64,000 bases of DNA from the sequence record OQ708376.1. The stretch is one strand, 5' to 3'. Under the pieces are notes generated by a model that was not told where the DNA came from, did no database searches, and saw nothing but the letters and a program-made list of their open reading frames with translations. Below, one piece after another: positions 2,598 to 22,353 of this stretch (its first letter is position 1; each line of letters begins with the position of its first letter). Origin of the DNA: Escherichia phage vB_EcoM_CRJP21. The translations under genes and the position numbers were made by a program.

Positions 2598-3060
2598 AAT
2601 ATCTATATGGTAAACTGTTGACAAACTGTGTACCTTCACGTATACTTTCCCATAGTGAGTAAAAATCTTTCATTAAGTTTGTGTTAAGTAAAGTATTTTT
2701 AGCACCAGGGTGTAATGGTTTAGGCCAAGAACCAATTCTAACCCAAGCATAACCAGAGCTTTCATGATTTAAAGTTGGTACAAATTCATTCTCAACTACA
2801 ATAACAAATGAATAATATTTAAATTTACCATTTTTTGTACAAAATACATCAAACGGTATAATATCAATAATGTTAGGTATTGAGTTGCCCAACTCTTCTT
2901 TAATTTCTCGCATCAGACCTTGTAGTGGTGTTTCGTTATGTTCAAGCTTTCCACCAACAAATGCCCAGTTGTTAGAATAGGTACTTCTTTCAGAACGCAA
3001 GTTTAACATCATATGTCCAGTACTTTTTGATAAAAATATAGCACCAACCGCTTCATTCAT
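2596..3060 (-). CDS. NUDIX hydrolase
   Basis: Exact Nudix box G-x5-E-x7-REIKEELG in GGKLEHNETPLQGLMREIKEELG. Confidence 0.85.
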   Translation of the reverse strand: MNEAVGAIFLSKSTGHMMLNLRSERSTYSNNWAFVGGKLEHNETPLQGLMREIKEELGNSIPNIIDIIPFDVFCTKNGKFKYYSFVIVVENEFVPTLNHESSGYAWVRIGSWPKPLHPGAKNTLLNTNLMKDFYSLWESIREGTQFVNSLPYRY

Positions 3061-3073
3061 AACAACACCTCCT

Positions 3074-5977: not shown

Positions 5978-6017
5978 GTTTATTAATTAGAGTGACGTGA
6001 ATCACATAGGAGAATAC

Positions 6018-8306
6018 ATGAATCTTACTCAATTGTTCAAAAAAAGCGACGAACTGGCAACATCTCTAGGTCATACATTCTTGACTATTGACCACGTAAG
6101 TGCCACAGTACTGACTATTGATAGCATCAAGAACGTATTTGAAGATATGAACATTGATGCAGACAAACTGCACAACCGCCTAATGAACTATCTTAAAAAT
6201 ACAACAGTTCCACATGCACCAAAAAGTGTTAAAGATGAAGACGCGAATCGCACTTCACTTCTAGTGAATCGCGTTGTACATGAGCTTTCTAAAAAATCAG
6301 TTATTGAACAACTAAAAAGTGATGATTTTTCGATTGATGCATATTTTGTTCTATTCGAATGTCTGTCTTTCCCTAACACAGCACTAGAAGCTGCGTTAAA
6401 AGAAGAAGGTGTTAGCTGTACTGAAGCTGCACGTGCATTACAGAAACACGTTGAGTCACTTGATAAGGGTATCAACTTACAAAGTATTAATGACGAACCG
6501 ATTGGAGATAAAAAAGTGGCCCAACAGCAGCAATCATCTAAACAAAAAGGTTTGGAAGACTATACAACGAATCTAACTGCTCTTGCAAAAGAAGGCAAAC
6601 TAGATCCTATGATTGGTCGCCAGAAAGAATTGTCTGCATTGATTGAGACTCTTGCTCGCAAAACCAAAAAGAATGCTATTCTCACTGGTGAAGCTGGTGT
6701 AGGTAAAACACAAATCATCGACGGGCTTGCACAAGCTATTGCTGATGGTAACGTACCTGAACACCTAAAAGACGTTGAAATTCTTTCACTAAATGTTGGT
6801 GCATTGACTGCTGGTACTAAGTATCGTGGTGAATTTGAAGAACGCATCGACAATTTGCTAAAAGAACTAAAGAAACGTGAAAATACTATTGTTTTCATTG
6901 ATGAAATTCATATTATGGTTGGGGCTGGTTCCGCAAGTAATGGTTCTATGGACATGAGCAATATGCTTAAGCCAGCACTTTCACGTGGTGAGATTCGTGT
7001 AATTGGTGCAACAACATATGATGAATATCGTAAAAATATCGAGAAAGATAGTGCATTAACTCGTCGTTTTATGAAAATTGACGTAGTTGAGCCGACAATT
7101 GATGAAACTCGTGCAATTGTTAATGGTTTGAAACCAACGTATGAAAAATTCCATAATGTTGAGTTCACATCTGATGCAATGGATGCTGTAATTTCTCTCA
7201 GTGATAAATTCCTGAAGAATAAGCACTTCCCAGATAAAGCAATTGATCTAATGGATGCTGCTGCGGCTAAAGTTCGTTCACGTGACAACAATAGTAAGCT
7301 TATTACTTCCAATTTGATTCAAGAAGTTGTTGCTGGTATTGCCAATTTGGATATCAACGTGGTTGCATGTACTGAAAGTGATCGTATGCGTAATCTACCA
7401 GATGCACTACGCTCACGTGTATACGGTCAAGAGGAAGCTATTCAAAAATTAGTTGATAACGTGATGGTAGCTCGTGCAGGACTGCGTGACAAATCTAGTG
7501 TTCAGGGTGCATTTATGTTTGTTGGACCATCTGGTACTGGTAAAACAGAAATTACCAAAGCATTAGCAGACGCAACTGGTGCGGAACTCATTCGCTTTGA
7601 TATGTCAGAATTTTCTCAAGAACATACTGTTTCTAAACTAATTGGTTCACCTCCAGGTTATGTTGGTCATGATTCTGGTAACGGTTTACTGTTGGATAAA
7701 ATTGAGCAGTTCCCTAATGCAGTACTGTTACTTGATGAAATTGAAAAAGCAGATCGTAAAGTACTACTAACCTTCCTACAGGTTTTGGATGAAGGTCGTC
7801 TGACTGGTTCTCAAGGTAAAACTGTATATTTTAATAACGTAACTGTTATTATGACTACAAACCTTGGTGCGGCTGATTCAACAAAGCGTAGCATTGGTAT
7901 GAGCGGTAGTGACACTGCACAGGACAAGGCAATTAAAGCATTCTTGCCACCAGAGTTTATTAACCGTATTGATAGTATCGTTACGTTTAAAGACCTAAGC
8001 AGTGAAGCTATTGACAGCATCATTGATAAGTTCATGGGTGGTTTGAATGAACAAGTCAAAGACCGTAATGTTAAAGTTACATTGACAAAAGCTGCACGTG
8101 AATGGCTTGCGAAAAATGGGGTAAAAGTTGGTATGGGTGCACGTCCAATGAAACGTACCATTGAACAAAACATTCGTGTACCACTAGCTAAAGAAATGTT
8201 GTGTGGTTCACTTGTGAATGGTGGTAACATTACATTTGATGTTATTGATGGTAAAATCGGTATTAAGCCGAAACGTACCAAAGCTGTAGATAAAGCACTA
8301 GTATAA
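6018..8306 (+). CDS. ClpA/ClpC-type Hsp100 AAA+ ATPase (two nucleotide-binding domains, no ClpB middle domain)
   Basis: Walker A GEAGVGKT and GPSGTGKT, Walker B IVFIDEIH and LLLDEIEKA, Clp-N-like N-terminus, SIGM tripeptide at the position of the ClpA IGL ClpP-docking loop. ORF track start at 5997 is GTG; ATG at 6018 has an AGGAGA RBS. Confidence 0.85.
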
Positions 8307-8343
8307 AAAAAGAAAAGGAGAGCATAATGCTCTCCTTTTTTTA
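8305..8343. terminator. Bidirectional rho-independent terminator
   Basis: A-run, stem GGAGAGC (8317-8323) / GCTCTCC (8329-8335), T-run; between the convergent ClpA-like and giant ORFs. Confidence 0.75.
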
Positions 8344-11300
8344 TTACTTAACTAATAATATATTTTTAATATCATTACCACTAACTTGTAGACTATCAGT
8401 GTATACTGAAAGATCTATAGTGTAACTATTTTGTGTGTAACGTTTTAACATATCATAATTACCTAAATTAATTCCATTGAAAGAATATGTAGTATTAAGT
8501 TTAAAATCATGTTCTGCACTATACATTACACCACGGAGTAAATTATTTGCATTTCTAACTTCAACTTTTTCATATCCAATCGATATAATATCATTCATGT
8601 TTGCGGCTGAACCGGATAAAACATTATTTCTAATACTATAAGGACTTATTGATTTAGGTTGAGAAACATAGGTTGTATTTTCTTCACTAATGGTTGTGAT
8701 GTTAGTAACAGTACCACCAACAACACCGATATACATACCGTCAACCATTGGGAATCCATAAACCCATATCCCTTCATTATTTCTAAACGGTTGAATAACA
8801 CTTGAATCATATTCGATAACGTTGATTTCTAAACTATCAGTCATTTTAGTTCTTGCCAATTCACTAAGAACTCCCGCACCCGTAATTGGTAAGTTATAAC
8901 CGTTATCGATAGTAATTCCATCAACATCAAATATTTCATTAGAGATTATCCAAACGTCAACGTCATCTGGTGTTATTCCGTCATTGTACTTACCACCATT
9001 TAAAGTAGTATCGTAGAAAACATCATAATTAATTACATCAATGGTGTAATTTCTATTTTGTTCATACAATTTAATACCATTCTTGACAAATTCAGGGTCA
9101 GCAAATGTTCTAACACGAACAATGTTCAATGCTAGAGGCTGTACTGGCTCATTTTGTTGTGCAAGAGTGATGTTATCATAACGGAGAACTGCACCAGTAC
9201 TCTCATCAATCAATTCAATCGTTTCCTTACCTGTATTTCTTACAGTGAATAGGATCGGAGTTGTATTGTTTTTGATGTTAGATACACGCAAGATTGTTTC
9301 CCATGTGTGATTTTGATATCTCACAAAATCTTCACCATCAGGAGTGAAAATCATCACCTTATCACCATCAGATAGGTCATTGTCAACTATTTCTGCTTCA
9401 GTTAAGCTATTAATAGATCTCACACGATAGAAATATTTTTCATCAAACTTCGATGTTGTTTTATTAATATCATTTTCAATCTTAGCATATGAAGGAATAC
9501 TTACAATTGCTTCTGTATGTTTATATGGATTGATAATTGCCATACCTTCAGTTTGATATCTGCTGTTATCACGTAATTGTACAAGAGATACATTGTCAAA
9601 CCCATATCCATCAACTGTAAATCTAATTTGACCTACATCACGCCCAGAAGGGTTTATGTCAGATATATCCACAATATAAGGATCAACTTCATCATCTTTA
9701 ACTTCCCATTTTATTGAAGAAGTTTGAGATTCCAATGCTAGGTTATCAAATGCATTCATATCATTGAAGTACTTAGCTTCAGTAATACTATCAAGTATAT
9801 ATTGATAATCAGAATACATTGGATTATTTTGATCTAGTGGTAAATCATCAAGATTTATTTCAGCTAGTTCAACCATTTCACCATTTGTGATAAAATAATC
9901 TTCCATGAAATCATCAATACTTTGTTCATCAGGTATACTTTGATATACACCGTTAACATTTAAGTAAACATATTTTCGTGGAATCATTGTAATTGCATAG
10001 ATATCAATTGGGGTCTTACTAAGAATCTCTTCAGCTTTTTCGTACTTATCAGTAGCGTCTTTGTCGAATAACCCTCTCATACCTGCTAATACGTGAATAG
10101 CATCAGTATAGAAACGGGTATCACCACCTACTTCATCATAACGATAAACATATACACCATACTCAACTTCAAGTTTAACTTTTACTTCATAGTCTGATGC
10201 GTCAGGATTTTTATCTTTAATTAATGAAATGTATTTTTGATACAATTCACTGCTTATTTCAAAATATCCATAGTTATAATCATTACTAGAAGAAAAGCCT
10301 AATGGAAGTCTAGTACTAGGATTGTCATTATAAGTAAGTCCACTAAATCCACATCCAACTTCATCGTGAATTTTCTCATCACTTATATCTTTATAAAGTT
10401 TCAAACGGTTTGCCAATGTGTTATACTGAACATATTGTCTAAGGTCAGTAAACATATCGTTATGCGTTGATTCTTTATAAACACGTTCCAATGTAGCAGT
10501 GAATTCATCAGTTGCTTCTAAATCTTCCGCATGGTCTTTATACCACTGGTTAACGCCATATGCTGTTCCTAGTGTTACATCCAATTCTGGATAGTAGATT
10601 TGCATTTGATAAGCAATAAGAAGATCGAAAGTTTCTTCACTATATTCTGGGAAAGAATATATATAACGTTGTAATTCATAGTTACTAACAGCATCCTTTT
10701 CATTGGATTGATATTTGTTATTAACACTTACTAATTCATTTATGCTTGCCAAATCTTCATTTGGTTTACACTGAATATTATCATAATGCATAATAATATC
10801 AATTTCTTGGAATCTTCTATTTGGTGTAACGAAATCACTTGGTAGTGAACCTACCTGTTCCCATTTTTGGGTAATTTCATTAAATTGAGCGTACTCATAA
10901 TCCCAAATATCTTTTTCAGTTTTGATCCAAGAACCATCAACGAAAATATATCCATTAGGATCTAAATCATTACATAGACCTTTTATTAAATCATCATCAG
11001 ATGTCTTTTGCTCTATTTGTGAACGAATTTTAGTTCTATAAGGTTTAACTTCTTCAAAATATTCAACAATTTGATTAATCAAATTATCGTTTGAATAGTT
11101 TTGAACTAATGATTGTTCCAAACCAACAATATAGATATATGATGTTTTAAATACCCAATCCACAACACTTTGTTCAACATGTACATATTTGACCATATCA
11201 AAAACAATTTCGCTTTGATGTAAATCGAAAGAATTTTTGAGTAAAGCTAGTGCTTTACGAACGTTGATTTCACGATTGCTTAGTGAACCATTATCATTAT

Positions 11301-14300
11301 GAACACTATAATCTGCGTAAAGCATATCATTGAGTTCAACTGTACTGTTTTCACGACCAATCGCTTTCCAATAAATTGAATCGCGTGATTGTGATTTAAT
11401 ATACAATGTCCAAATGTTTTCACTATCGGTAACTCTGATAATATCGCCAACTTGGTAGTTTTTAGTATTAGCATCTTCTAAGCTTGACTCTTGAGTATAA
11501 GTCGTGTTACTATCATATCCAACATCATACCAATCAGCATATGACCAGTACTGAGTCATGTCTAATGAGGTTCCTAGTGATTCAACATAATCAGATTGTT
11601 TAATCATTTTATGTTGTCCCTCACCTTTGTTTTCTAACGTTATAGTAACAACACTACCCGCGTTTGCTGGACTATTCATTAACTGAATATATCCATTTTC
11701 GTCGAAGTGAATAAAATAAACAGCACTAGAAGTTAATGGATTTGGTAGATATCCACTAGTACTTAAAATAACAGCGTCATTTTCTTTAAATTTATCACTT
11801 TCAACTGCAATAACTAATTCATTATTGTAAGACAACACACGGAAAGAAACTTCATTAGGGTTAACTTCAGTGGTTTTAACATTAAACACATCTTCCATAA
11901 CAACACTATTAGTGGTTATGTTTTGTGACCTATAATAATTATTAGCACTTTCTACAAAGTTTCTACGAGCTTCTATAACATTTTGGAACCAAGTTTTGTT
12001 TGATCCTAAACCGTTATCAACATCTGGATATAATAAATTAATCACAGAACCTGATTCAGTTGTTTCTTGACCAATTAGTGAGTTCCACATTGAATCCCAA
12101 ATTAGTGGGTTAAAGTTATAGCTGTCACCTTCTTTACATAGTTGATACTGGTCATGTTTAACAACTTCAGTACTATCCATGTAATAAGAAACAGTTAAAA
12201 TACTGGTATCATCATTCACTTTAAATTGCATATTACTAAGAATAAACGAGTTTTCATTTATTGGAGCGAACCAAGGAATGTTTAGCTGTGTTGGATCTTT
12301 AATAATACGAGCAATGTCAGTACATGATTTCGTTCTGGTATGTAGTGGTGGTACATAAATTGTATCACGTACCCAGAAATAGTATTTTGTTACATAACTA
12401 TCAGTTGAACTATCATATTCCAAAAATGTACTATAATTATCTTCAAGTGCAGTTCCACTTGGTAGATACATAGTATTATTTTTGTTTTTCTTAGCAACAT
12501 CTTTACAGTATTTGTCCCAGTTATATGGCTCAACTGGTGAACAAACCCACTCTAACACATCAATGGTACTATGTGGTAACAAACGGCCCCAGTTGTAACG
12601 TTTGTATTCATTGGTTGCATCAATATCAACATTACCGTCTGCGTCATAAATTGCACGAGTATAATCCAAATAAAATGCAGTGCTAGTGTTCCACCATACT
12701 TGACCAACTTTATCAGCACCCCAAGCCTGGATTAACTCTCCATTACTATTATACTGTGCAGGATCAACTGGTGAAGTATATGTTACGTTTTGCATAGCCG
12801 CACCTGGAATAACACCATTAATTGGGTCATAAACGTTTAGATATAGCTCAGTAATGTTAGTACGTTCATCATATGTCGTTGGACGATCAAATAAAGTACT
12901 TTGTGGTGCTTTAAAACTATATTTCTTGTCAATGTAAGCTTGACGATCATCAGTACTGGCAAAACGTGATACATAACGATACAAACGTGGACGTGTATCT
13001 GGATCAGTAAATTCAATATCAATAGAAGTGTCAAATGGAACTACCATAACTTTAGGATCAGAACCAGCAGTATAATATTGACTTTCTACTGTTAAAGTAT
13101 CTGGCATAAAGTTAGTTTCATCAACAAAATAATAATAATCACCATCTTCAAGTGGTACATTATCAGTTAAAGTTACTTTACAAAATTGTTCAGCATACAC
13201 ATCGGTATTTTCAATAGGTGTTATAGAAACCATTTGTACATTAGTATCAACCAATTCAAAAATGTTCCACAAACCATTACCGTCTTTAAACATCCACACA
13301 GATTCAGGATTTTCACCTTTACCATTAGTATAAGTTATGCGGTCATTATATGCAGTACTGAAATCTTTTGTTGTGTACGATACTTCATCCAATGTTACTG
13401 GACCAATATCTGGAAGTTGGATGTTTTCACTTCTTCCACTACGCATTGGGAATGAGAACTTACCATTTGGACGTGTAATCCAACGAGGATCTTTACCTTG
13501 CTCACCGAAGTATACAATATGATTACCATTACCATTTGAAGTTGCATTTACATCAAAAGAAACCATTTGAGGTTGTTGTTTAAATTGGTCATTGATTAGT
13601 TTAAATTGAAGGTTTTTCTTACCATCAATATTACCATATGTACCAATTTTAAATGCCCATTCTTGTAATGCTTTATATTCATCAGTGTCATATGATTTAG
13701 AAACACGAAGTACACGTTCTAAAACTTGGTTAGTACCTTTATCGTGAATGAATCCTTTATAGAAATCAACACGACTAACATCACTACTAATCATACGCTG
13801 TAGATAATCACGAGATTGATAACCAATCAAATGGTTTGACAACTCTTGTAATTGTACATCACTTACTGGAGTTTCACTATCATAATAATGTTGGAAATCC
13901 GACACTAATTTTTCAAATGATGGTAGTGTTCCAGCTTCCAAGATAATAAATCCAGGAGCTTGTAGGCGACCAGTCCATGAACCAGTAATATATCCATACA
14001 TTTTAATTAGTTCTTGAATAGAACCATATGTTGGCTGATAAATGTAATCACCAAAAATAGTTTTATCATCAAAAATAACAGCATGTTCATATGAACACAA
14101 ACTTAAACGAATCAATGCAATGCGTTTATTAGATTCTAAAGTTCTAACAGTGAAGATATTTCCAATACGAGAAGTTTCAATTTCATATTGGCGAATACCT
14201 TGGTTATTATCATCAAGTAATGACCATACACCACCATTATTTTGCGTAATAGATTGTACTGAACCAAAGTCTGCCCCAAATTTAGCGTTTGCAGCACTTG

Positions 14301-17300
14301 GGGTACAAGAAATAAATTCACCAGTTACTAGAGAATTCTGACTCCAGATCACGAAATCTTTAGCAATAGTGTTCCAATCTTGTTGAGCACCACTATCATT
14401 TACATCTTCAAAAATCCAACCATGTTCTTTAAGATATTCACCATATCCACAAATAAAAGTATAAACTTCTTGGTAACTATTGAAAACTTTACCATATTCA
14501 ATTGAAGCTTCAGACTTCCATTCATTATAATGAACAACATTACGGTTTTCCAATTTAAGAGTTACTTTTCTACCATTTTTTACTGGAAGTTTATATTTAA
14601 ATTTAGCACCAACTAGATCATATCCATCAATCTGATATGCACTACCATTCCAAGTAATTTTGATCGCACTCATTTGCTCATCACGGATATTATTAGAACG
14701 AACAAGACCAATGGTTTGGTTTTCTTGTGAAATAAGACCGAAAGATTTAGCATTGAATGTTAGCTGATCTGCTTTAGTAAATCCTCCAATTTTATGACCA
14801 ACATTTATATAAGAAGAACGAACTACATCCCCATACTTGGTGGTAATATTTTTATTTTGATACATCAAATGGTCACTTACAAACATTTGATAACCAATTG
14901 TTCTTGTGCTATTTTCACCATGAACTACTGTATTTTTATCAAAATTAATACGCTTACGTGTATCACCATAAAGGAATTGTGAACCATCAGTGAATACTTC
15001 TTTTAAGTTATCGTTGCGGGTATCCCAGAAATAGTTAGCAAATTGTGCTGGTTTAGCTTTATACAAAAGCATCATTTGGTCATATGCAAACAATGTAGTG
15101 TTCATGTATGTAAATTCCATGTCACCCATATCACCATATGTCCAAGGTTCTGCTCTATGATTTAAAGATCCAGACACTAAACCTAAAATTTCAGGTGCAA
15201 TATATTCAACCACACAAATATCAATACCAGAAGATGTTTTATTTCCAGTTTTTGTAATTTTGAATGGCTGTACACCAAATCTTTTATATTTGTCATATTG
15301 ACCACGACGATCACCAAATAAAATAGTTCCAGTACTGCTATCTCCAATAGTTCCGTCAATATCCCAAAGACCACTAGGAACTAAATCACCTTGCTCATTC
15401 ATAACAAGTGCTTCATATACATATACAACATCACTATCACGTTCACCAACTTGAACAGCCGTTGGTTCGTATTCTTGGTTCCACCAAGTTGGACGTTGTG
15501 TAAAGCCAAACATTTCCCACGGATGGGTAGCTGGGCGATATGTACCATATTGGTCAGTGTAAATGGCACGCCATGAACCACGTGCAGGAATTTCAGTACT
15601 TTGACCATTAACTACATAATAAGTGCCAGTATAGTTCCAAGTTCTCCAATTGTTAGGATCATAATCATGTGTACTATTACTGATACCATTAGTTGCGGTG
15701 AAGTTAATGTATCCACGTAGTAATAATGTTTGTTTCTCTTCAGCACTATATTCAGTTTTAGTGAAATATGGTGTAGGGAAAAGGTCATCACTATTCAATA
15801 CTGGTACGTAATCAACATCTTTGAATTTATTATCAATACTATTAAAAATTCTATTTTCTAATTCATATACAACATCATCCATTTTATCAACACCATTGAT
15901 AACACGGTATGCTTTGGAAATAATACCAGTATGACTGATGTTATAACAGCTTGGTTTACTACCAGCAGTGAGGAATGTCGCTTTTTCTGGTACATATGCT
16001 TGAAGAATACCTAAGAACTGTGGTGTTGGTGGTATAAATGCACGAATGAATCCAGAAGTACTTCCAACATTATCATAATAGAATGGGAATGAACTATCAC
16101 GTCCCATATTAATAGTAGTTAAAATTGCATCAACAATGTTTGCAGCACTATTTTGTAAAAAGTCTGATGGATTTTCATCATACATACGAAGCATTTGTGT
16201 ATTAAATTTATTAATGAATCTAAAATATTCAGATTGCATAAACATAGTTGCTTCAAACAAATCAATATCTTCATTTGCAGTATGTGCCATCAATGGAAGC
16301 ATAGATGCTTCATTTTGGATAATTTTAGTACCTACGCCATTATTAACCAATCCTTTAGCCAAACGTTCTTCATAGTCATTGAAATCATCAGAAGAACCAC
16401 GTGTAATGTTCTTTTGAATAATATCCTGAAAATGTAAAGTGTAGTCACCTTGGTTAATGTATATAATATTAGAATTATATGGGTTATTTTGTAGGTTGAT
16501 TGGAACTTCATATGCACCTAATTCTTTATTAGGAGTTACAGTACTGCTATAAGTTCTAATTTGAATAACAGAATCTTCATCCAATTCTACAGTACTATCT
16601 AGAGTGATGCTTTGTACTTGACCTTTTGAAACATTTTTGGTATATTTGGACACATCAACACCATCAACCACAACTTCAATAATATCAGAATCATTATCTA
16701 AAACTTTTTGTGCCAATTCGAATGTATGGTCATATTTTACAATCTGAACACCATCACCAGTAATTGGATGCCAATCTAGATAAGTTTCACGGTCAGCTTT
16801 ATAGTACTGATATGTTCTATCAACTTCAATAACATATGCATACATACCATCAACTGGTTCTTTAAAAACTTCCATATCATAAACAGTACTGAATACACGA
16901 TACATATCAGTACGTTGGACTTGTGGAGTTTGTTTTACAAATTGTTTAGAGTACTCTTCTGAACGAACCCAATCGGTTTGAAGATTCATTTCATTATTTT
17001 CATCAATAATGTTATAATAGTATAAACCATCAATTTCAACTTCTTTTCCAAGATGGTCATAGGTATAACGTTGGGATTGTAAAAAGTTTTCATAAATGTA
17101 ATAATTATAATCACCAAGTTCAATGTTATATCCATATACACTATCAGTTGCATAGTTGTAATTTATTTTAAAACCAAACAACTCTGAACCTTTAAAGTTA
17201 CTTGATGGATATGTAGTACTGTTGTCAAGTTTGATACCATTACGATCATAAAGTTGGAATTTAGGGAATACGTTAACACTAGTTTTTGATTGTGCACGAA

Positions 17301-18345
17301 CCCACAAAGATCCATTCCAGTACATAGAACTATTACCATACTCATTACCTTTAGTGATTAGAACAACATCACCATCTTGAGGTTCACCACTTGGGCGTGA
17401 TTCGGTTTCTTCTTCTGGATCTAGTGCTAAACCATAAACACGAGTACCATCTTGCATTTTTTTCACATATACATTATAAATTCTATTGTTTTCACCATTG
17501 TTACCAATACTGGTGAATAGAATACGCATTCCATCTTGCGGAATAATACCATCAATACGTATACCACTATTAATATCTTTTTGAACGATATCTTCAGGTT
17601 TAATAATATCAGAGAACAGATCAACAGTTCCACGGAATTTTGTACCGTAGTTAATTAGCTCAATATTTTTATTATATTCAATAATTGGTGCACGTGCACG
17701 AATAAAACGTGAATCTTGCATTAATTCTTCAGTTAATATTGAGCCATCTTCTAATGTTTCACCTAAAGTATACCAAAAGTTTTGTAGTGACCATGTATTA
17801 CCATTAAGTGCTCCACGTTCCATTACAATGTAATCAGGTGAAGTAATATTATAAGAGTTTTTAGTATCCCAAAGATATGAGCTAAAATTGTTCATTTTAT
17901 TTGGGTTAATAGCTGGAGTCCATGCATAAAACTTACCGTTGAACAAACGGCTTTCATTATCGGTTAGTGCTCCATAATGATTCATGTATCCAACTAGATC
18001 ATCATAAAATTGAATTGAACGAATTGTCGAATCATCATTTTTTGAGACGTAAGCAGTGGACAACTGATAAAGTTGACGTGCTACAGTACTTTCATGTAAG
18101 AAGATATTACCAGCAGCGGCAGGAGAACCCATATCACCAATATAGCCGTCAACTAATTCGTTTTCAGCCGGATTAAACCATTGTTGAATAACATCATCAC
18201 TGACTTTTTGAATATCTTCTAAGCCTTGCATCCACTCAGGCAATCTTTTAATAAAAAGCTTCTTCTGTACTGCTTCAGCCATCTGTGTAGGTTGAAACTT
18301 AAAATTATTAGTCATTTTTGGACTCCATATAATTCGTTCATTCAT
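8344..18345 (-). CDS. Giant virion structural protein (3333 aa), probably baseplate or tail-fibre associated
   Basis: Single uninterrupted 10-kb ORF immediately downstream of the gp6-like gene (the position of gp7 and later wedge/fibre genes in T4); Asn/Tyr/Gly/Thr-rich fibre-like composition. Confidence 0.65.
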   Translation of the reverse strand: MNERIIWSPKMTNNFKFQPTQMAEAVQKKLFIKRLPEWMQGLEDIQKVSDDVIQQWFNPAENELVDGYIGDMGSPAAAGNIFLHESTVARQLYQLSTAYVSKNDDSTIRSIQFYDDLVGYMNHYGALTDNESRLFNGKFYAWTPAINPNKMNNFSSYLWDTKNSYNITSPDYIVMERGALNGNTWSLQNFWYTLGETLEDGSILTEELMQDSRFIRARAPIIEYNKNIELINYGTKFRGTVDLFSDIIKPEDIVQKDINSGIRIDGIIPQDGMRILFTSIGNNGENNRIYNVYVKKMQDGTRVYGLALDPEEETESRPSGEPQDGDVVLITKGNEYGNSSMYWNGSLWVRAQSKTSVNVFPKFQLYDRNGIKLDNSTTYPSSNFKGSELFGFKINYNYATDSVYGYNIELGDYNYYIYENFLQSQRYTYDHLGKEVEIDGLYYYNIIDENNEMNLQTDWVRSEEYSKQFVKQTPQVQRTDMYRVFSTVYDMEVFKEPVDGMYAYVIEVDRTYQYYKADRETYLDWHPITGDGVQIVKYDHTFELAQKVLDNDSDIIEVVVDGVDVSKYTKNVSKGQVQSITLDSTVELDEDSVIQIRTYSSTVTPNKELGAYEVPINLQNNPYNSNIIYINQGDYTLHFQDIIQKNITRGSSDDFNDYEERLAKGLVNNGVGTKIIQNEASMLPLMAHTANEDIDLFEATMFMQSEYFRFINKFNTQMLRMYDENPSDFLQNSAANIVDAILTTINMGRDSSFPFYYDNVGSTSGFIRAFIPPTPQFLGILQAYVPEKATFLTAGSKPSCYNISHTGIISKAYRVINGVDKMDDVVYELENRIFNSIDNKFKDVDYVPVLNSDDLFPTPYFTKTEYSAEEKQTLLLRGYINFTATNGISNSTHDYDPNNWRTWNYTGTYYVVNGQSTEIPARGSWRAIYTDQYGTYRPATHPWEMFGFTQRPTWWNQEYEPTAVQVGERDSDVVYVYEALVMNEQGDLVPSGLWDIDGTIGDSSTGTILFGDRRGQYDKYKRFGVQPFKITKTGNKTSSGIDICVVEYIAPEILGLVSGSLNHRAEPWTYGDMGDMEFTYMNTTLFAYDQMMLLYKAKPAQFANYFWDTRNDNLKEVFTDGSQFLYGDTRKRINFDKNTVVHGENSTRTIGYQMFVSDHLMYQNKNITTKYGDVVRSSYINVGHKIGGFTKADQLTFNAKSFGLISQENQTIGLVRSNNIRDEQMSAIKITWNGSAYQIDGYDLVGAKFKYKLPVKNGRKVTLKLENRNVVHYNEWKSEASIEYGKVFNSYQEVYTFICGYGEYLKEHGWIFEDVNDSGAQQDWNTIAKDFVIWSQNSLVTGEFISCTPSAANAKFGADFGSVQSITQNNGGVWSLLDDNNQGIRQYEIETSRIGNIFTVRTLESNKRIALIRLSLCSYEHAVIFDDKTIFGDYIYQPTYGSIQELIKMYGYITGSWTGRLQAPGFIILEAGTLPSFEKLVSDFQHYYDSETPVSDVQLQELSNHLIGYQSRDYLQRMISSDVSRVDFYKGFIHDKGTNQVLERVLRVSKSYDTDEYKALQEWAFKIGTYGNIDGKKNLQFKLINDQFKQQPQMVSFDVNATSNGNGNHIVYFGEQGKDPRWITRPNGKFSFPMRSGRSENIQLPDIGPVTLDEVSYTTKDFSTAYNDRITYTNGKGENPESVWMFKDGNGLWNIFELVDTNVQMVSITPIENTDVYAEQFCKVTLTDNVPLEDGDYYYFVDETNFMPDTLTVESQYYTAGSDPKVMVVPFDTSIDIEFTDPDTRPRLYRYVSRFASTDDRQAYIDKKYSFKAPQSTLFDRPTTYDERTNITELYLNVYDPINGVIPGAAMQNVTYTSPVDPAQYNSNGELIQAWGADKVGQVWWNTSTAFYLDYTRAIYDADGNVDIDATNEYKRYNWGRLLPHSTIDVLEWVCSPVEPYNWDKYCKDVAKKNKNNTMYLPSGTALEDNYSTFLEYDSSTDSYVTKYYFWVRDTIYVPPLHTRTKSCTDIARIIKDPTQLNIPWFAPINENSFILSNMQFKVNDDTSILTVSYYMDSTEVVKHDQYQLCKEGDSYNFNPLIWDSMWNSLIGQETTESGSVINLLYPDVDNGLGSNKTWFQNVIEARRNFVESANNYYRSQNITTNSVVMEDVFNVKTTEVNPNEVSFRVLSYNNELVIAVESDKFKENDAVILSTSGYLPNPLTSSAVYFIHFDENGYIQLMNSPANAGSVVTITLENKGEGQHKMIKQSDYVESLGTSLDMTQYWSYADWYDVGYDSNTTYTQESSLEDANTKNYQVGDIIRVTDSENIWTLYIKSQSRDSIYWKAIGRENSTVELNDMLYADYSVHNDNGSLSNREINVRKALALLKNSFDLHQSEIVFDMVKYVHVEQSVVDWVFKTSYIYIVGLEQSLVQNYSNDNLINQIVEYFEEVKPYRTKIRSQIEQKTSDDDLIKGLCNDLDPNGYIFVDGSWIKTEKDIWDYEYAQFNEITQKWEQVGSLPSDFVTPNRRFQEIDIIMHYDNIQCKPNEDLASINELVSVNNKYQSNEKDAVSNYELQRYIYSFPEYSEETFDLLIAYQMQIYYPELDVTLGTAYGVNQWYKDHAEDLEATDEFTATLERVYKESTHNDMFTDLRQYVQYNTLANRLKLYKDISDEKIHDEVGCGFSGLTYNDNPSTRLPLGFSSSNDYNYGYFEISSELYQKYISLIKDKNPDASDYEVKVKLEVEYGVYVYRYDEVGGDTRFYTDAIHVLAGMRGLFDKDATDKYEKAEEILSKTPIDIYAITMIPRKYVYLNVNGVYQSIPDEQSIDDFMEDYFITNGEMVELAEINLDDLPLDQNNPMYSDYQYILDSITEAKYFNDMNAFDNLALESQTSSIKWEVKDDEVDPYIVDISDINPSGRDVGQIRFTVDGYGFDNVSLVQLRDNSRYQTEGMAIINPYKHTEAIVSIPSYAKIENDINKTTSKFDEKYFYRVRSINSLTEAEIVDNDLSDGDKVMIFTPDGEDFVRYQNHTWETILRVSNIKNNTTPILFTVRNTGKETIELIDESTGAVLRYDNITLAQQNEPVQPLALNIVRVRTFADPEFVKNGIKLYEQNRNYTIDVINYDVFYDTTLNGGKYNDGITPDDVDVWIISNEIFDVDGITIDNGYNLPITGAGVLSELARTKMTDSLEINVIEYDSSVIQPFRNNEGIWVYGFPMVDGMYIGVVGGTVTNITTISEENTTYVSQPKSISPYSIRNNVLSGSAANMNDIISIGYEKVEVRNANNLLRGVMYSAEHDFKLNTTYSFNGINLGNYDMLKRYTQNSYTIDLSVYTDSLQVSGNDIKNILLVK

Positions 18346-18361
18346 TTGATTTATTTATGAT

Positions 18362-18388
18362 ATAAAAAAGGCGTTCCGAAGAACGCCC
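18362..18388 (-). terminator. Rho-independent terminator (minus strand)
   Basis: Stem GGCGTTC / GAACGCC with CGAA loop (UUCG on the minus-strand RNA) and a minus-strand T-run; between the gp6-like and giant genes. Confidence 0.6.
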
Positions 18389-18394
18389 GTTATA

Positions 18395-21300
18395 TTAAGA
18401 ACCGATATTAATATTACTTTTAGCTAGTGAGTTAACAATTTGAACATTTTCAACAGATGCAGTACTCAAAAATATTTGGTCTGAACGTGAAGGGATTTCA
18501 AATAGAGAGCCAAATTTTGAATTTGGATTTTGTGCAACTATAACAATGGTACTAATATGTCTACCTAACTGTGAGTGTATGTAAGTACACAAATCAGTAT
18601 AATAGAAACTTTCACCGAAATCCCAGTTGTCAACATTGAAGTATTCATTAGTTAATGCTATAACATTTTGACGAATTTCATCGTCACTCATTGTGCTGTT
18701 TGGTAATTTCACTACTTTAAAATCAGCTTTGTAATCTTCAGCAGCACTGTTGCCAAATAAAGGTAAGTACTCAGCACTATGCCAAATAATACTATCACTA
18801 ATGACTATTTTTTGTTCAACATCTTTGAACATATCTTTCAATTCAACCGATGTAGGTGGTTTAGGAATACTACCAACAGCATTATTTTTCAACCAAACGT
18901 CAACTTCAGTTTTATATGAATTGGTTAATACATACATATCAATTAAGTTTGTTCTACTAGGATCAATGCGATTGTCGTCAGGTGCATAGTGTTTCCAATG
19001 GAAGTCTATACTAGTACGTGCATTAGTTTTAACAGTGTACTGTGAAGTAACATCTTTGTATCCATAATAATCTAGCTTCTGATTCTCGTCAGCATTAGTT
19101 CCCATGTTATTAATTGCACGATAAAAAGCCAATTCAGGACTAACAGTGCCAGTATCATCGGAATAAGTTAAATTACTAATTAGCTGTCCTAAACGATCAT
19201 TGTTATTACCAACTGTTTGTTCAATAAAATAATATTTACCATCATAGTTAAAACCAACTAAAAATCCAGAACCTTTACTATATAATCCACTCAATGTGGT
19301 TGAACGAATTGCGTTATTTCTAACAAATTCAGTTCTTTTATATGCATTCGGCTCTGCCAAGGCTTGTTCCATTGTATAAGACCACGATGAATCAAGAAGT
19401 GTGAAGGTATCATTTGGTAACGACAGTACTGATATAGTGAAATCACTATTTTCCTGAAATACCAAAATACCACCATATTTTAATGCATCGGTTCCAGTCC
19501 AAGTAGGAACAATTTCTTTAAATTGGTTTGGTTCCAATGGTATACCATTACTATCTACTTTCCTAGATGTAACAATAACACGAGAACCATCTAGATAGCC
19601 ATTCTCTTGTTGAATTGTGTCATAAATTTGAAAATCTATATTACTTGTCAATCCTGAATTACTACTACTAGTAGTGTTAGATGATAAAATTTCAATCTTA
19701 TCACTTTGAACTGTACCAGTACTAATATCAGTAATTTTTTTAGATGATACAAAGTAAAATCTTACTTTTTCTCCACCCACAAAAATATATTCAATACCGT
19801 TAGCATCAAATTCCCAAGTTTCTGCTGTATATTTTACATTAATTATAATTAAAACTTCATTACCATTATATACAATAGTATCATCATTGGTACTTACTTC
19901 AATAGGAACCCATGATGTCGTTTCTTTGTCATGTACAATAACAAAATCAGTTTTTTTATCTAGCATAGCAGAAATTGCTTGAACTTCAACCGAGTTAAAT
20001 CTAGTTCTATATGGTAAAATGTACTCTATGGCTTGCATTCCACTTGGAACCGATGTACTCAGTACATAAAATCCATTATCCAATACACTAACTACACTAG
20101 CCCATATAGTAGTTCCAGAATTAGAAAATTTAATTAGAGTACCAACCTGATATGAACCATAAACTGTACCAGATGAACCCAAAATTCTACCATATGTGTT
20201 AGTTGTATAATTTGAATTGTATACCGGAGTCCATGCTTGTTGTATTTCAATACCAATTGTATTTGATGGAAACGCTTGGTAACGTTGTATTACCGCATTT
20301 TCACCAATCAATGGTTGAATATTGTCAATAACAATACTAGCATTTGTTTTTGTAGTTGGTAGCAATAATGATCTATTAAATTGTGTGTTTTCTTGATATA
20401 ATGCACCATCATCACTAAAAACATCGGTATTTTGATACTTACCAGTAGGATCATTAATATCAATAAATCTTGATTGTCCACTATAAATTCTATTAATAGC
20501 TTTAGATTTAAGTACAGTATTGCCTAAACTAAGTGGTGCAATATTATAATCTTCACCATTGACAAAACGGTTTTGTGTATAGTACATTTGTGGTGCACGT
20601 GCTTTAATCTGCTCAATAGTCTCTGCACTTTGTGCACGGTCGGACTCATATTGTAATGAAAAACGTATATCCAATGTACTAGATTCATAACTTGACTGTG
20701 TTTTTGTACGATATGTATATTTTACGCTTTTGTTTTGAATTTCAGAAGTTTTAATGTTATATGTTTTACCATTACTAACACGATACCATACGCGGAACGT
20801 CCCACGGGGAACAACACCACTTCTTGAGTCTGGATACTTAATTGTTATTTGATCTTTATCACGAGTAGTAACAGCAAAAATTGTTTTTAATTGACGATTA
20901 ACAGTGTTATATGCAATACTTTCCATTGATGGAACTTTTGTCCATTTGGTACGAACAATACCATCTTCATTTATTTCTTGAACCCATACATCAGTTTCGT
21001 TGATATTATCAACGTTAATATCTTGTATACGGTTCTCTTCACGGATAGCATATTGATAATCTTGATATGTCAATGTACCTTGTACGAAATATACAAAAAA
21101 ACCAGTATTTGGTGAACTAAATCCATTACCATCATTTTGATAAACAATATATTTTTGCTCTTGTGGTTCTGGATGTCGTTCTTCAACACCAACAGACGTA
21201 ATATCAGGATTCACTACTTCAAATGTCATAGATTCACCATTGACAGTTGCAATAAATGGAATACTGGGTGCTGTCATTGGGATGGTGTTCATTCGATATA

Positions 21301-21856
21301 GTTGACGAGAGACACCATTAACATCAATACGCTTGACTGGATTACCAAATTGGTTAGTACTGACAAATGAACTGTTCATTACTAGAATGAAGTTTTCATA
21401 CCAGTTAGCATCCATCGGGTCATTCCAACGAATGATTTTATCTTTTAATGATTCATTAAAACTATTACGAACATCTTGGTTTGTTTTAATTTCGGTTAAT
21501 TTAGCAACTGCACGACCTGGATATGAGCGGCGTGGTGAGTAAGAAATCATTTTAGCTAGTTTTAGTACTGATGCACGACGAGTTGCAGTATCTAAAAAGT
21601 TTTCACGTGTGTTCAAATCCATACGAAATGCCAAGTTCTGCCCTAGCATAGAAATCGTATCTAAAATAAAAATAAACTGGTCGTTTTCGATCCAGTCGTT
21701 GAATGAGTCTGGGTAAGTTGCACGTAGATAATCAATCATACTCTGACGGATAGTATCGAAGTCATAAGCTGTAAGATTGATTTTATAAAAACTTTCATAT
21801 ACTTGAGTCCAATCCTCACCAGCGTATAAATTTGATTGCCTTTTTTGTTGTGACAT
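18395..21856 (-). CDS. Baseplate wedge protein, gp6 / baseplate-J-like (1153 aa)
   Basis: N-terminal region aligns by eye with T4 gp6 (YDF..., L.D.L.A.N block); lies directly downstream of the gp25-like gene, the conserved W-J order. Confidence 0.5.
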   Translation of the reverse strand: MSQQKRQSNLYAGEDWTQVYESFYKINLTAYDFDTIRQSMIDYLRATYPDSFNDWIENDQFIFILDTISMLGQNLAFRMDLNTRENFLDTATRRASVLKLAKMISYSPRRSYPGRAVAKLTEIKTNQDVRNSFNESLKDKIIRWNDPMDANWYENFILVMNSSFVSTNQFGNPVKRIDVNGVSRQLYRMNTIPMTAPSIPFIATVNGESMTFEVVNPDITSVGVEERHPEPQEQKYIVYQNDGNGFSSPNTGFFVYFVQGTLTYQDYQYAIREENRIQDINVDNINETDVWVQEINEDGIVRTKWTKVPSMESIAYNTVNRQLKTIFAVTTRDKDQITIKYPDSRSGVVPRGTFRVWYRVSNGKTYNIKTSEIQNKSVKYTYRTKTQSSYESSTLDIRFSLQYESDRAQSAETIEQIKARAPQMYYTQNRFVNGEDYNIAPLSLGNTVLKSKAINRIYSGQSRFIDINDPTGKYQNTDVFSDDGALYQENTQFNRSLLLPTTKTNASIVIDNIQPLIGENAVIQRYQAFPSNTIGIEIQQAWTPVYNSNYTTNTYGRILGSSGTVYGSYQVGTLIKFSNSGTTIWASVVSVLDNGFYVLSTSVPSGMQAIEYILPYRTRFNSVEVQAISAMLDKKTDFVIVHDKETTSWVPIEVSTNDDTIVYNGNEVLIIINVKYTAETWEFDANGIEYIFVGGEKVRFYFVSSKKITDISTGTVQSDKIEILSSNTTSSSNSGLTSNIDFQIYDTIQQENGYLDGSRVIVTSRKVDSNGIPLEPNQFKEIVPTWTGTDALKYGGILVFQENSDFTISVLSLPNDTFTLLDSSWSYTMEQALAEPNAYKRTEFVRNNAIRSTTLSGLYSKGSGFLVGFNYDGKYYFIEQTVGNNNDRLGQLISNLTYSDDTGTVSPELAFYRAINNMGTNADENQKLDYYGYKDVTSQYTVKTNARTSIDFHWKHYAPDDNRIDPSRTNLIDMYVLTNSYKTEVDVWLKNNAVGSIPKPPTSVELKDMFKDVEQKIVISDSIIWHSAEYLPLFGNSAAEDYKADFKVVKLPNSTMSDDEIRQNVIALTNEYFNVDNWDFGESFYYTDLCTYIHSQLGRHISTIVIVAQNPNSKFGSLFEIPSRSDQIFLSTASVENVQIVNSLAKSNINIGS

Positions 21857-21957: not shown

Positions 21958-22353
21958 TTATAAAGACGATACTGAATATGTTGCCATTCTGTTATTACTT
22001 CTTGCATCGAATACAATAGTAAGTTCTTCTAATGTATCCAATACTACGTACTGTAATACAATATTCATTTGGTATCCATATTCTATTCTTGAAATTTGCA
22101 ATTTCTTAAGATTTAAGCGTGGATCTAAGCTAATTATTCTACGGGCATCTGCTTCCAAAAGGTTGATAGTATTATAACCTTCCAATTCAAACAGCAAATC
22201 CCATGCAATAAAACCATAGTCAGCATCAAATGCTCTTTCGCCTTTTTTTGTATTGAAATGATTCATTAAATCTTGGCGAACCAATTCACTATCATACAAT
22301 GTTTCAGTTCTACCCACTACTGGGGTAGAAAAACCTTTAAAAACAACTGCCAT
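21958..22353 (-). CDS. Baseplate wedge protein, gp25 / GPW-like
   Basis: 131 aa, size and pattern (KGERAFDADYGF...DLLFE) resemble T4 gp25 lysozyme-fold wedge protein. Confidence 0.65.
   Translation of the reverse strand: MAVVFKGFSTPVVGRTETLYDSELVRQDLMNHFNTKKGERAFDADYGFIAWDLLFELEGYNTINLLEADARRIISLDPRLNLKKLQISRIEYGYQMNIVLQYVVLDTLEELTIVFDARSNNRMATYSVSSL

What the first reader, a model, noticed from the sequence alone, without database searches (positions are those of the whole stretch)
8344..18345. Single 10-kb ORF encoding a 3333-aa virion protein
An uninterrupted ORF of 3333 codons sits where T4 has the separate gp7-gp12 wedge and fibre genes, directly after the gp6-like gene. It may be a fusion of several baseplate/fibre modules or a giant fibre. 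Antisense ORFs inside it in the track are all short and low-complexity. A protein this large is unusual and implies special folding needs, which may relate to the ClpA-like and GroES-like genes.
Basis: partly seen in the sequence, partly recalled or inferred. Interest (0 to 1): 0.5.

Follow-up and report, generated by a model that had tools for sequence, protein, structure and literature searches.

The report
Giant two-module jumbo-phage baseplate protein
The 10-kb gene is real and encodes a roughly 382-kDa virion protein, found across a whole supergroup of jumbo phages, that most likely forms the bulk of each baseplate wedge; it is neither a fibre nor a string of T4-like genes, and is built from two modules that some relatives encode as separate proteins.

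Summary
The ORF (window 8344-18345, minus strand) is real. The window is an Asteriusvirus (G17/Sharanji 100%, PBECO4/phAPEC6 99.9%), and the product was detected in phAPEC6 virions by mass spectrometry. The true start is probably Met11 (3,323 aa, 381.9 kDa).

It belongs to a family whose 120 best-listed members are all giant (2,779-5,638 aa). The family is found throughout the Rak2/PA5oct/Atu_ph07 jumbo-phage supergroup, usually after gp5-like, gp25-like and gp6-like genes. A collinear core (aa ~14-2470) carries insertion hot spots; the last ~860 aa are clade-specific.

New here: in at least two lineages the family is encoded as two genes. The second begins with the conserved 80-aa helical block (giant aa ~2376-2458). 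The giant is therefore module I fused to module II.

Best reading: a wedge and peripheral baseplate scaffold at the gp7 position. gp7 orthology is not shown. ClpA adjacency holds only in the Rak2-like clade, and GroES lies 33 kb away.

The parts
8344..18345 (-). Whole open reading frame, 3,333 codons plus stop
8344..18315 (-). Probable true CDS starting at Met11 (3,323 aa, 381.86 kDa)
   Evidence: Met11 aligns with the first Met of all homologues. The mass matches phAPEC6 gp245.
18323..18326 (-). GGAG ribosome-binding site 7 nt upstream of the Met11 ATG
   Evidence: sequence
18175..18288 (-). aa 20-57: N-terminal helix-turn-helix predicted with low confidence. Candidate element for the wedge core bundle with the two gp6-like chains (inferred).
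   Evidence: Model (H20-33, H43-57, pLDDT 27-59). By analogy, XM1 gp17 residues 1-48 form this element (PMC10457771).
11221..18315 (-). Module I (aa 11-2375): conserved collinear core. Blocks at aa 14-159, 160-470, 590-757, 769-1598, 1825-2140 and 2260-2375, with insertion hot spots between them.
   Evidence: HSP map, alignments, model of aa 1-1200. It exists as a separate 2,453-2,780-aa protein in split clades.
10963..11220 (-). Conserved helical adaptor (aa 2376-2461), the first element of module II. It forms the N-terminus of stand-alone proteins in split clades.
   Evidence: tblastn and blastp. HHalign probability 98.5%, E 3.7e-15. phrog_10938 positions 2368-2485 hit stand-alone N-termini. 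Long helices with pLDDT 27-47.
8347..10962 (-). Remainder of module II (aa 2462-3333): clade-specific array of globular helical, alpha/beta and beta-barrel or beta-sandwich domains joined by flexible linkers
18369..18388 (-). Terminator-like hairpin between the gp6-like stop codon and the giant's start
18352..18359 (-). CATAAATA, 7 of 8 matches to the T4-type late promoter TATAAATA, just upstream of the ORF (inferred promoter)
   Evidence: A gp55-like late sigma gene lies at 29009-29848.
8313..8339 (-). Strong 12-bp hairpin immediately after the stop codon, between the convergent giant and ClpA-like genes. Probably a bidirectional terminator.
18395..21856 (-). gp6-like baseplate wedge gene (1,153 aa), the presumed partner. 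It is immediately upstream in nearly all family loci.
   Evidence: phrog_10646 and phrog_219, DUF8360 in relatives, synteny

Best explanation
The gene encodes a structural protein of the tail baseplate. It is the dominant wedge and peripheral scaffold of Rak2-like jumbo phages, and it is encoded where simpler contractile systems encode the gp7/TssG/gpI-type wedge protein.

The proposed mechanism has four steps, all inferred:
1. One copy per wedge (six per virion, about 2.3 MDa in total) joins two copies of the gp6-like protein. The joint would be the giant's N-terminal helix-turn-helix.
2. The rest of module I (aa ~60-2375) folds into a large multidomain body. Its surface loops tolerate insertions, and in other clades these carry carbohydrate-binding, FG-GAP and lectin-type domains.
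3. Module II is attached through a conserved ~80-aa helical adaptor (aa ~2376-2461). In this phage the two modules are fused in one chain. In some relatives module II is a separate protein that starts with the same adaptor.
4. The clade-specific C-terminal domains of module II form the outermost part of the baseplate. They are the likely docking platform for this clade's fibres, or a contact with the cell surface.

Shown: the ORF, its presence in virions, the family, the gene order, the two-module architecture, and the globular non-repetitive character.

Inferred: baseplate location, stoichiometry, the N-terminal bundle, and the role of the C-terminus.
For: - Intact and under selection.
- Present in virions of phAPEC6 and PA5oct.
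- The gene order gp5-like, gp25-like, gp6-like, giant holds in all 18 Rak2-like loci and in at least 13 distant loci.
- The 120 best-listed family members are all 2,779-5,638 aa, with a collinear core.
- The family occurs in 92 phage records across the supergroup.
- The model of aa 1-1200 is compact and confident (pLDDT 84.8, pTM 0.80), with a floppy helix-turn-helix within the first ~47 residues counted from Met11. This matches the position of the core-bundle motif in XM1 gp17.
- Distant members carry CBM_5_12, FG-GAP_2 and Laminin_G_3 domains in insertions or C-termini, which points to external exposure.
- Split-gene relatives are documented.
- Fibre and gp10-like genes follow the giant in PA5oct and L002.
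- The gene is bracketed by terminator-like hairpins and has a late-promoter-like motif upstream.
Against: - There is no direct localisation. The baseplate assignment rests on gene order.
- In the L031 and L048 clade, module I is not next to the gp6-like gene. Eight other ORFs intervene.
- A different small virion protein (window 1466-2566) shares its N-terminus with the ORF that follows gp6-like in that clade. The gp7 role could belong to another protein.
- aa 1201-2133 were not modelled.
- PHROGs files the family under 'head and packaging', although that label is automatic.
Confidence: 0.6

Rival explanations
1. The giant is a peripheral baseplate protein but not the gp7 equivalent. Another, smaller protein completes the (gp6)2-gp7 core bundle, and the giant is bolted on outside, comparable in role to T4 gp8/gp10/gp11 without being related to them.
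For: - No fold or profile similarity to gp7 or TssG-type proteins.
- In the L031 and L048 clade, module I is separated from the gp6-like gene by eight ORFs.
- In that clade a 270-290-aa ORF directly follows gp6-like. Its N-terminus matches the window's 366-aa virion protein at 1466-2566.
Against: - In most lineages the giant is the gene directly after gp6-like.
- The N-terminus of the 366-aa protein looks like a fibre attachment region and not a helical motif (alignment text; my reading).
- No other gp7 candidate was identified in the baseplate cluster.
Confidence: 0.27
2. It is a giant tail fibre or adhesin: an elongated, probably trimeric, receptor-binding fibre.
For: - Fibre genes follow it in some relatives.
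- Carbohydrate-binding modules occur in distant homologues.
Against: - No internal repeats.
- aa 1-1200 fold into a compact body with pTM 0.80.
- The C-terminal 1,200 aa are globular domains on linkers.
- RaK2's fibres are accounted for by other proteins, gp526-534 and gp098 (PMC10253068).
Confidence: 0.06
3. It is a head-to-tail concatenation of homologues of T4 gp7, gp8, gp9, gp10, gp11 and gp12, whose lengths sum to 3,002 aa.
For: - Its position after gp6-like matches the T4 gene order 6-7-8-9-10-11-12.
- The total length is similar.
- There is a weak hit to a gp10-like domain carrier, CBA120 TSP4.
Against: - HHalign of the family profile against each T4 protein gives probability of 0.4% or less.
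- None of those proteins appears among the fold-search hits.
- The T4 proteins occur at 1, 2 or 3 copies per wedge, which a single chain cannot reproduce (established T4 knowledge).
- PA5oct keeps a separate gp10-like gene next to its giant.
- The one natural break point in the family lies at aa ~2350-2376, not at T4-like boundaries.
Confidence: 0.04
4. It is an internal or ejected virion protein, such as a tape measure or an N4-vRNAP-like giant, and not an external baseplate component.
For: - PHROGs labels the family 'head and packaging'.
- It is very large and is detected in virions.
Against: - It is embedded in the baseplate gene cluster.
- It has a mixed alpha/beta multidomain architecture, not an all-helical tape measure. 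3,323 aa would also be far too long for a 94-128-nm tail.
- It has no polymerase or other enzymatic family hit.
- Homologues carry extracellular-type carbohydrate-binding domains.
Confidence: 0.03

Closest known systems
gp7-type baseplate wedge proteins: T4 gp7 (1,032 aa), XM1 gp17 (242 aa), P2 gpI, Mu gp48, T6SS TssG, pyocin PA0619
   Same: - Encoded directly after the gp25-like and gp6-like genes.
- A structural virion component.
[quoted passage not shown]
- A variable remainder that in known systems holds fibres or spikes.
   Different: - 3 to 14 times larger.
- No detectable sequence, profile or fold similarity.
- Two-module build with a second conserved helical adaptor.
- In one clade the gene is not adjacent to gp6-like.
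phrog_10938, annotated 'virion structural protein' in PBECO4 (gp538), 121Q (gp582), RaK2 (ORF070), GAP32, CBB, phAPEC6 (gp245) and PA5oct (RefSeq gp355; probably the gp128 of the PA5oct paper, inferred from its position beside the wedge gene gp129)
   Same: It is a member: full-length match, E = 0, positions 1-3324 of 3324. It is 100% identical to the G17 and Sharanji proteins.
   Different: Nothing differs. The family itself has no assigned function or location in the literature I could search.
CBA120 TSP4 N-terminal region (anchor domain plus T4 gp10-like XD domains), the branching-fibre attachment module
   Different: The match is below significance and covers fewer than 100 of 1,200 residues. 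The aligned residues are not known.
Large peripheral baseplate proteins of other jumbo phages, such as phiKZ gp87 and gp27 (9xqs, 9xqd)
   Same: Large multidomain baseplate periphery proteins in a jumbo myovirus.

Membership tests
phrog_10938 / Rak2-like giant virion structural protein family | Full-length match to the family HMM | tested here: met
   E = 0, 5,793.6 bits, residues 11-3330 against profile positions 1-3324 of 3324
phrog_10938 / Rak2-like giant virion structural protein family | Presence in purified virions | tested here: met
   By literature, not by experiment here. phAPEC6 gp245 (99.9% identical gene) gave 17 unique peptides. The PA5oct homologue is flagged ESI-MS/MS-positive.
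gp7 / TssG / gpI-type wedge protein | Gene immediately downstream of the gp25-like and gp6-like genes | tested here: met
   In the window: 21958-22353, then 18395-21856, then 8344-18345. Conserved in 18 of 18 Rak2-like loci and at least 13 distant loci. Not met in the L031 and L048 clade.
gp7 / TssG / gpI-type wedge protein | N-terminal helix-turn-helix that forms the core bundle with two gp6 chains | tested here: inconclusive
   A helix-turn-helix is predicted at aa 20-57 with low confidence, at the position expected from XM1 gp17. No complex prediction was available. HHalign against the gp6-like N-terminus was negative.
gp7 / TssG / gpI-type wedge protein | Sequence or fold similarity to a known gp7-type protein | tested here: not met
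   - phmmer and family profile against PDB sequences: nothing.
- HHalign against T4 gp7: probability 0.3% or less.
- aa 1201-2133 were not modelled.
gp7 / TssG / gpI-type wedge protein | One copy per wedge (six per virion), in contact with gp6 and gp25 | not testable with these tools
   Only a rough hint from peptide counts per residue: gp6-like 21 peptides over 1,153 aa, against the giant's 17 over 3,323 aa.
Phage tail fibre / tailspike | Repetitive or elongated trimeric architecture (beta-helix, coiled coil, triple-beta repeats) | tested here: not met
   No internal repeats. Compact globular models. No significant fibre or tailspike fold.
Phage tail fibre / tailspike | Recognised fibre or depolymerase domains (Pfam, PHROGs) | tested here: not met
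   No Pfam family in the giant or in 14 relatives. Only CBM_5_12 and FG-GAP in the insertions of distant members.
T4 gp8 / gp9 / gp10 / gp11 / gp12 modules | Detectable homology to any of these proteins | tested here: not met
   HHalign of the family profile against each protein gives probability 0.4% or less. None appears among the fold-search hits. Sensitivity is limited, because the T4 targets were single sequences and one third of the protein is unmodelled.
Tape measure protein | Predominantly helical, with length proportional to tail length | tested here: not met
   Mixed alpha/beta domains. 3,323 aa is several times what a 94-128-nm tail needs (tail lengths; the 1.5 Å-per-residue rule is established knowledge).

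The most novel reading that the evidence does not exclude
This family represents a distinct architectural solution for contractile-tail baseplates. A single 300-640-kDa polypeptide per wedge would replace the multi-protein periphery of T4-type baseplates. Its folds would have no counterpart among solved baseplates. An ~80-aa helical adaptor would attach the outer module either within one chain (fused, as here) or between two chains (split genes in relatives). Nature has thus supplied matched fused and split versions of the same joint.
Probability: 0.4. Interest if true: 0.6.

Novelty: new variant of a known kind. Interest (0 to 1): 0.5.

Why it matters
- **Unassigned mass.** Rak2-like jumbo phages (RaK2, K64-1, phiKp24-type relatives, PBECO4, 121Q, G17) are studied for their elaborate multi-depolymerase fibre systems and as therapy candidates, yet nothing is known about what those fibres are mounted on. 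This protein is by far the largest in the virion and probably makes up about 2.3 MDa of the baseplate. It has no assigned role in the literature I could search.
- **Guide for cryo-EM.** If it is a gp7-position wedge scaffold with a separable outer module, that gives cryo-EM studies a concrete map of domains and boundaries to fit.
- **Fibre docking.** It points to the clade-specific C-terminal ~870 aa as the place to look for the docking site of clade-specific fibre anchors.
- **Engineering.** It offers a natural split point (aa ~2350-2376) for engineering.
- **Limits of homology methods.** About 2,400 confidently or moderately modelled residues have no significant structural neighbour, even though many baseplates have been solved.

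Tried and rejected
1. Pfam on the giant and on 14 relatives: nothing consistent.
2. phmmer and a family-profile hmmsearch against all PDB sequences: nothing. The best hit was E 0.31 to a ribosomal protein.
4. HHalign of the N-terminus, the helical adaptor and the whole family profile against T4 gp6, 7, 8, 9, 10, 11, 12 and 53 and against the gp6-like family: all probabilities 1.1% or less.
5. Self-BLAST for repeats: none.
6. Exhaustive phmmer of the C-terminal 863 aa against 1.84 billion representatives, looking for shuffled or stand-alone copies: only 7 hits, all giants or fragments.
7. The idea that the 366-aa virion protein at 1466-2566 is the true gp7: no Pfam or PDB support, and its N-terminus is not helical. 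Left open, not adopted.
8. ClpA and GroES as dedicated folding helpers: rejected as unsupported.
9. Rooting fusion against fission with a crude NJ tree: unresolved.
10. Literature search for a published role or structure: none found.
11. Alignments A1 and A2 were too large for structure prediction. Only 22 homologues per model could be used, and only two 1,200-aa segments could be modelled, so aa 1201-2133 remain unmodelled.
Full report
**1. The observation**

The window holds one uninterrupted frame of 3,333 codons from 18345 down to 8344 on the minus strand.
- With the ORF's own base composition, a stop is expected every ~12 codons. The probability of 3,333 stop-free codons is about 1e-121.
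- The other five frames contain 163-607 stops, and none stays open beyond 97 codons.
- Overlapping and antisense ORFs are all 89 aa or shorter.
- The next largest ORF in the window is the 1,153-aa gene just upstream.

**2. Source and integrity**

Megablast identifies the window as an Asteriusvirus. The gene is 100% identical in phages G17 and Sharanji. It is 99.9% identical in PBECO4 and phAPEC6, and 99.2% in 121Q.
- It is a single CDS in at least 17 independent records.
- Metagenomic protein clusters at 44-86% identity are also uninterrupted, at 3,310-3,361 aa.
- Three Salmonella-phage records from one study show the gene in pieces. In SD-1_S14 a 13-nt and an 11-nt deletion are responsible, and the second removes invariant residues. 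These assemblies are 310-326 kb instead of ~350 kb, so I regard the breaks as probable artefacts. I could not check reads.

**3. Start codon**

Met11 aligns with the N-terminal Met of every homologue. A GGAG sits 7 nt upstream of it, whereas Met1 has no such site. The Met11 product weighs 381.86 kDa, equal to the 381.88 kDa listed for phAPEC6 gp245. The real product is probably 3,323 aa.

**4. Virion protein**

The phAPEC6 structural proteome lists gp245 (381.88 kDa) with 17 unique peptides, next to gp244, 'baseplate wedge', 131 kDa (PMC7247149). The PA5oct homologue is flagged ESI-MS/MS-positive in its RefSeq record. The second refutation criterion, absence from virions, is not met either.

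**5. The family**

- *Size.* A word-indexed search returned 198 relatives. The best 120 are all 2,779-5,638 aa long, with identities down to 24%.
- *Distribution.* tblastn finds the family in 92 isolated-phage records: the Rak2-like genera, a Vibrio phage (38%), PA5oct-like phages (28%), Atu_ph07, Phosso and SCTP-2, and weakly XacN1-like phages. IMG/VR contigs carrying it reach 480 kb.
- *Core.* Pairwise HSP maps show a collinear conserved core, aa ~14-2470. It divides into blocks at 14-159, 160-470, 590-757, 769-1598, 1825-2140 and 2260-2470.
- *Insertions.* Insertion hot spots lie between the blocks and reach ~1,600 aa in some members. In distant members the recognisable Pfam domains sit in these insertions or in the C-terminal region: FG-GAP_2 and CBM_5_12 by direct scan, and Laminin_G_3 and Gly_rich_2 from precomputed annotation.
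- *C-terminus.* The last ~860 aa are conserved only within the Rak2-like clade. An exhaustive HMMER search with them found 7 hits among 1.84 billion representatives, all giants or short fragments.

**6. Gene order**

In the window the order on the minus strand is:
- a 104-aa wedge subunit
- a 749-aa virion protein
- an 887-aa gp5-like hub with lysozyme
- a 162-aa lysozyme
- a gp25-like protein
- a 1,153-aa gp6-like protein
- the giant

The run gp25-like, gp6-like, giant recurs in all 18 Rak2-like loci examined. It also recurs in at least 13 distant loci, including RaK2, PA5oct, Atu_ph07 and metagenomic contigs. This is the position of gp7 in T4. It is also the position of the gp7-type protein in simpler systems, such as XM1 with gp15-gp16-gp17 (PMC10457771).

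**7. Structure**

*aa 1-1200.* AlphaFold2 with 22 homologues gave mean pLDDT 84.8 and pTM 0.80. The model is a compact body of mixed beta and helical domains. The first ~57 residues form a low-confidence helix-turn-helix.

*aa 2134-3333.* The model has pLDDT 68.6 and pTM 0.33. It is a chain of confidently folded domains (beta-rich, helical, alpha/beta, beta-barrel or sandwich) joined by low-confidence linkers. It also contains a stretch of long helices (aa ~2357-2461) with very low confidence, even though this is one of the best conserved sequences in the family.

*Fold searches.*
- Foldseek on aa 1-1200 gave no E of 1e-3 or better. The best hit was the same TSP4 fragment, E 0.11.
- T4 gp7-gp12 never appear among the listed hits.

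*Sequence methods.* These agree. There are no Pfam hits, no PDB sequence hit even with a family profile, and HHalign probabilities of 1.1% or less against T4 gp6-12 and gp53 and against the gp6-like family. A self-comparison finds no repeats.

**8. Two modules**

The main new result is that some relatives encode the family as two genes.

*P0072 clade.* This covers loci L003, L004 and L030, and the 77%-related L029.
- A 2,780-aa protein matches giant aa 14-2344.
- It ends with in-frame stops.
- It is followed by a GGAG and a new start codon. In L029 the new gene is in a different frame and has a GTG start.
- The new gene's product begins MSHQNEIFFAMLRHVLDEQEDIDWAFKTS. This aligns with giant aa ~2376-2449.

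*Second clade.* This comprises six contigs of 203-286 kb (L031 and relatives).
- The same helical block forms residues 4-82 of a 929-aa protein.
- That protein is encoded upstream of a 2,453-aa protein matching giant aa 18-2155.
- A tail-tube paralogue and a small ORF lie between the two genes.

*L044.* The block lies on the opposite strand.

*Extent and confirmation.*
- Of the 120 listed homologues, the four that lack the block in the same chain are P0072, P0073, P0087 and P0088.
- Stand-alone module II proteins form a family of 90 clusters, 538-1,564 aa, on contigs up to 388 kb.
- HHalign between that family and the giant's C-terminal part gives 98.5% probability (E 3.7e-15) for giant aa 2379-2458 against residues 8-88. 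Weaker collinear matches follow further on.
- The giant's own PHROG profile, positions 2368-2485, hits the N-termini of stand-alone proteins at E 1e-12 to 1e-18.

The giant is therefore module I (aa 11 to ~2375) fused to module II (aa ~2376-3333). Module II consists of a conserved helical adaptor followed by clade-variable domains.

A crude midpoint-rooted NJ tree puts the split lineages in at least two places. One is sister to the Vibrio plus Rak2-like clade. Whether fusion or fission came first is unresolved.

**9. Mechanism (inferred)**

- The position after gp6-like and the N-terminal helix-turn-helix suggest that module I joins two gp6-like chains in each wedge, as gp7-type proteins do.
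- Its large, insertion-tolerant body would form the baseplate periphery.
- The helical adaptor is highly conserved but predicted with low confidence. That is the behaviour of a segment that folds only against a partner. It would tie module II to the assembly, in the same chain here and between chains in split clades.
- The clade-specific C-terminal domains would then be outermost. They are candidates for docking the clade-specific fibre anchors. RaK2 gp528 has a 105-aa anchor conserved only among alcyoneusviruses (PMC10253068).
- None of this is localised experimentally. gp7 orthology fails the similarity test, so I claim positional and probable functional equivalence, not family membership.

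**10. A caveat on gp7**

In the L031 and L048 clade, eight ORFs separate gp6-like from module II, and module I is not adjacent. The ORF directly after gp6-like (270-290 aa) shares its first ~76 residues with a 366-aa virion protein of the window at 1466-2566. That N-terminus looks to me like a fibre attachment region and not a helical motif, and it has no Pfam or PDB match. It remains an alternative candidate for a wedge-core partner.

**11. Chaperone idea**

- The ClpA-like gene (5997-8306, plus strand) converges on the giant, with a strong hairpin between them.
- This adjacency holds in all 17 Rak2-like loci that have downstream DNA. It holds in none of the distant loci within the available flank.
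- PA5oct-like phages have a ClpA-like gene, but about 145 kb from their giant. In Deifobo it lies at ~65 kb, against 212 kb for the giant. Atu_ph07, L002 and L003 have other genes downstream.
- The protein has two Walker A motifs and a [10 protein letters not shown] loop resembling ClpA's ClpP-docking IGL loop (the comparison with E. coli ClpA is from my knowledge). This fits an unfoldase feeding a protease better than a folding helper.
- The GroES-like gene (PBECO4 gp507) is about 33 kb away among replication and head genes. In T4 the GroES analogue gp31 serves the major capsid protein (established knowledge).
- The link to the giant's folding is therefore unsupported, though not disproved.

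**12. Transcription (inferred)**

A terminator-like hairpin (18388-18369) follows the gp6-like gene. CATAAATA, 7 of 8 matches to the T4 late promoter, lies just upstream of the ORF. A 12-bp hairpin (8339-8313) follows the stop codon. The giant may be its own late transcription unit.

**13. Literature**

The genome and proteome papers for RaK2, phAPEC6, PA5oct and Sharanji, the phiKp24 and Alcyoneusvirus fibre papers, and a 2026 review of jumbo phages list the protein at most as a large hypothetical or structural protein. None assigns a role or structure.

**14. Verdict**

- Right: it is a virion protein in the wedge-gene position, and it is a fusion.
- Wrong or unsupported: the fused parts are two family-specific modules, not T4 gp7-gp12 modules; it is not a fibre; and the chaperone connection has no support.

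It is a new variant of a known kind, a baseplate wedge and peripheral protein. It is notable for its size across the whole family, for the absence of any structural relative, and for the natural fused and split versions.

**Limits**
- aa 1201-2133 are unmodelled.
- Fold searches used 1,200-aa multidomain queries.
- The T4 targets in the profile comparisons were single sequences.
- The location in the virion is inferred.

Noticed in passing
window 18313-18345 (minus strand): The annotated ATG (Met1) is probably not the start. Met11 has a GGAG 7 nt upstream, aligns with the first residue of all homologues, and gives the mass reported for phAPEC6 gp245. PBECO4 and several other records annotate the longer form.
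   Followed up: yes
window 18352-18388 and 8313-8339: The giant gene is bracketed by terminator-like hairpins. The downstream one has a 12-bp stem between convergent genes. A CATAAATA late-promoter-like motif lies just upstream, so the gene may be its own late transcription unit. ATAAATA motifs also precede the gp6-like gene (21915), the 162-aa lysozyme (22874 and 22891) and the first baseplate gene (28913). The motif is under-represented in the window overall.
   Followed up: partly
window 5997-8306 (+): The ClpA-like AAA+ protein has Clp_N, two AAA modules and a D2-small domain. It also has a [10 protein letters not shown] loop resembling the ClpP-docking IGL loop of E. coli ClpA, suggesting that it feeds host ClpP. 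Homologues exist in the Rak2-like, Vibrio 2.275.O and PA5oct-like phages.
   Followed up: partly
window 1466-2566 (+): A 366-aa virion structural protein (PBECO4 gp543, phrog_14394). Its N-terminal ~76 aa are 38% identical to the ORF that directly follows the gp6-like gene in split-clade loci (L031 3577-4452). It could be a baseplate-attached fibre or an alternative wedge-core partner. It has no Pfam or PDB match.
   Followed up: partly
L050 (Salmonella phage SD-1_S14, OR699183.1 288518-298465): The giant is annotated as three CDSs because of a 13-nt and an 11-nt deletion (net -24 nt). The second removes the invariant NWGR motif. Sister records SD-2_S15 and SD-6_S16 are also fragmented, while SD-15_S21 is intact. 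These records are 310-326 kb, against ~350 kb for relatives. This is probably an assembly artefact.
   Followed up: partly
L031 10019-21412 (and L034, L035, L038, L042, L043): In this uncultivated jumbo-phage clade the module II gene precedes the module I gene. A tail-tube paralogue (206 aa, phrog_4542) and a 132-aa Gp53-like_C ORF lie between them. A late sigma factor gene and a second tube-like protein are among the eight ORFs between gp6-like and module II.
   Followed up: partly
L048 (contig ONAT22-1 scaffold_36, 269 kb): A stand-alone module II protein (671 aa) is followed directly by the tail sheath gene. No module I gene lies within 10 kb, so it is unknown whether this phage has module I elsewhere or lacks it.
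   Followed up: no
window ~51.8-52.2 kb (PBECO4 gp507 equivalent): The GroES-like co-chaperonin gene sits beside a zinc-ribbon gene and the DNA polymerase, about 33 kb from the giant. By analogy with T4 gp31, it more probably serves capsid protein folding.
   Followed up: partly
window 22894-25557 (-): The gp5-like hub protein (887 aa) carries its lysozyme domain at the C-terminus (aa 765-882), after the OB-fold and DUF2345 regions. This differs from T4 gp5, where the lysozyme is central. A separate 162-aa lysozyme gene follows. The RaK2 paper already noted the unusual domain order.
   Followed up: no
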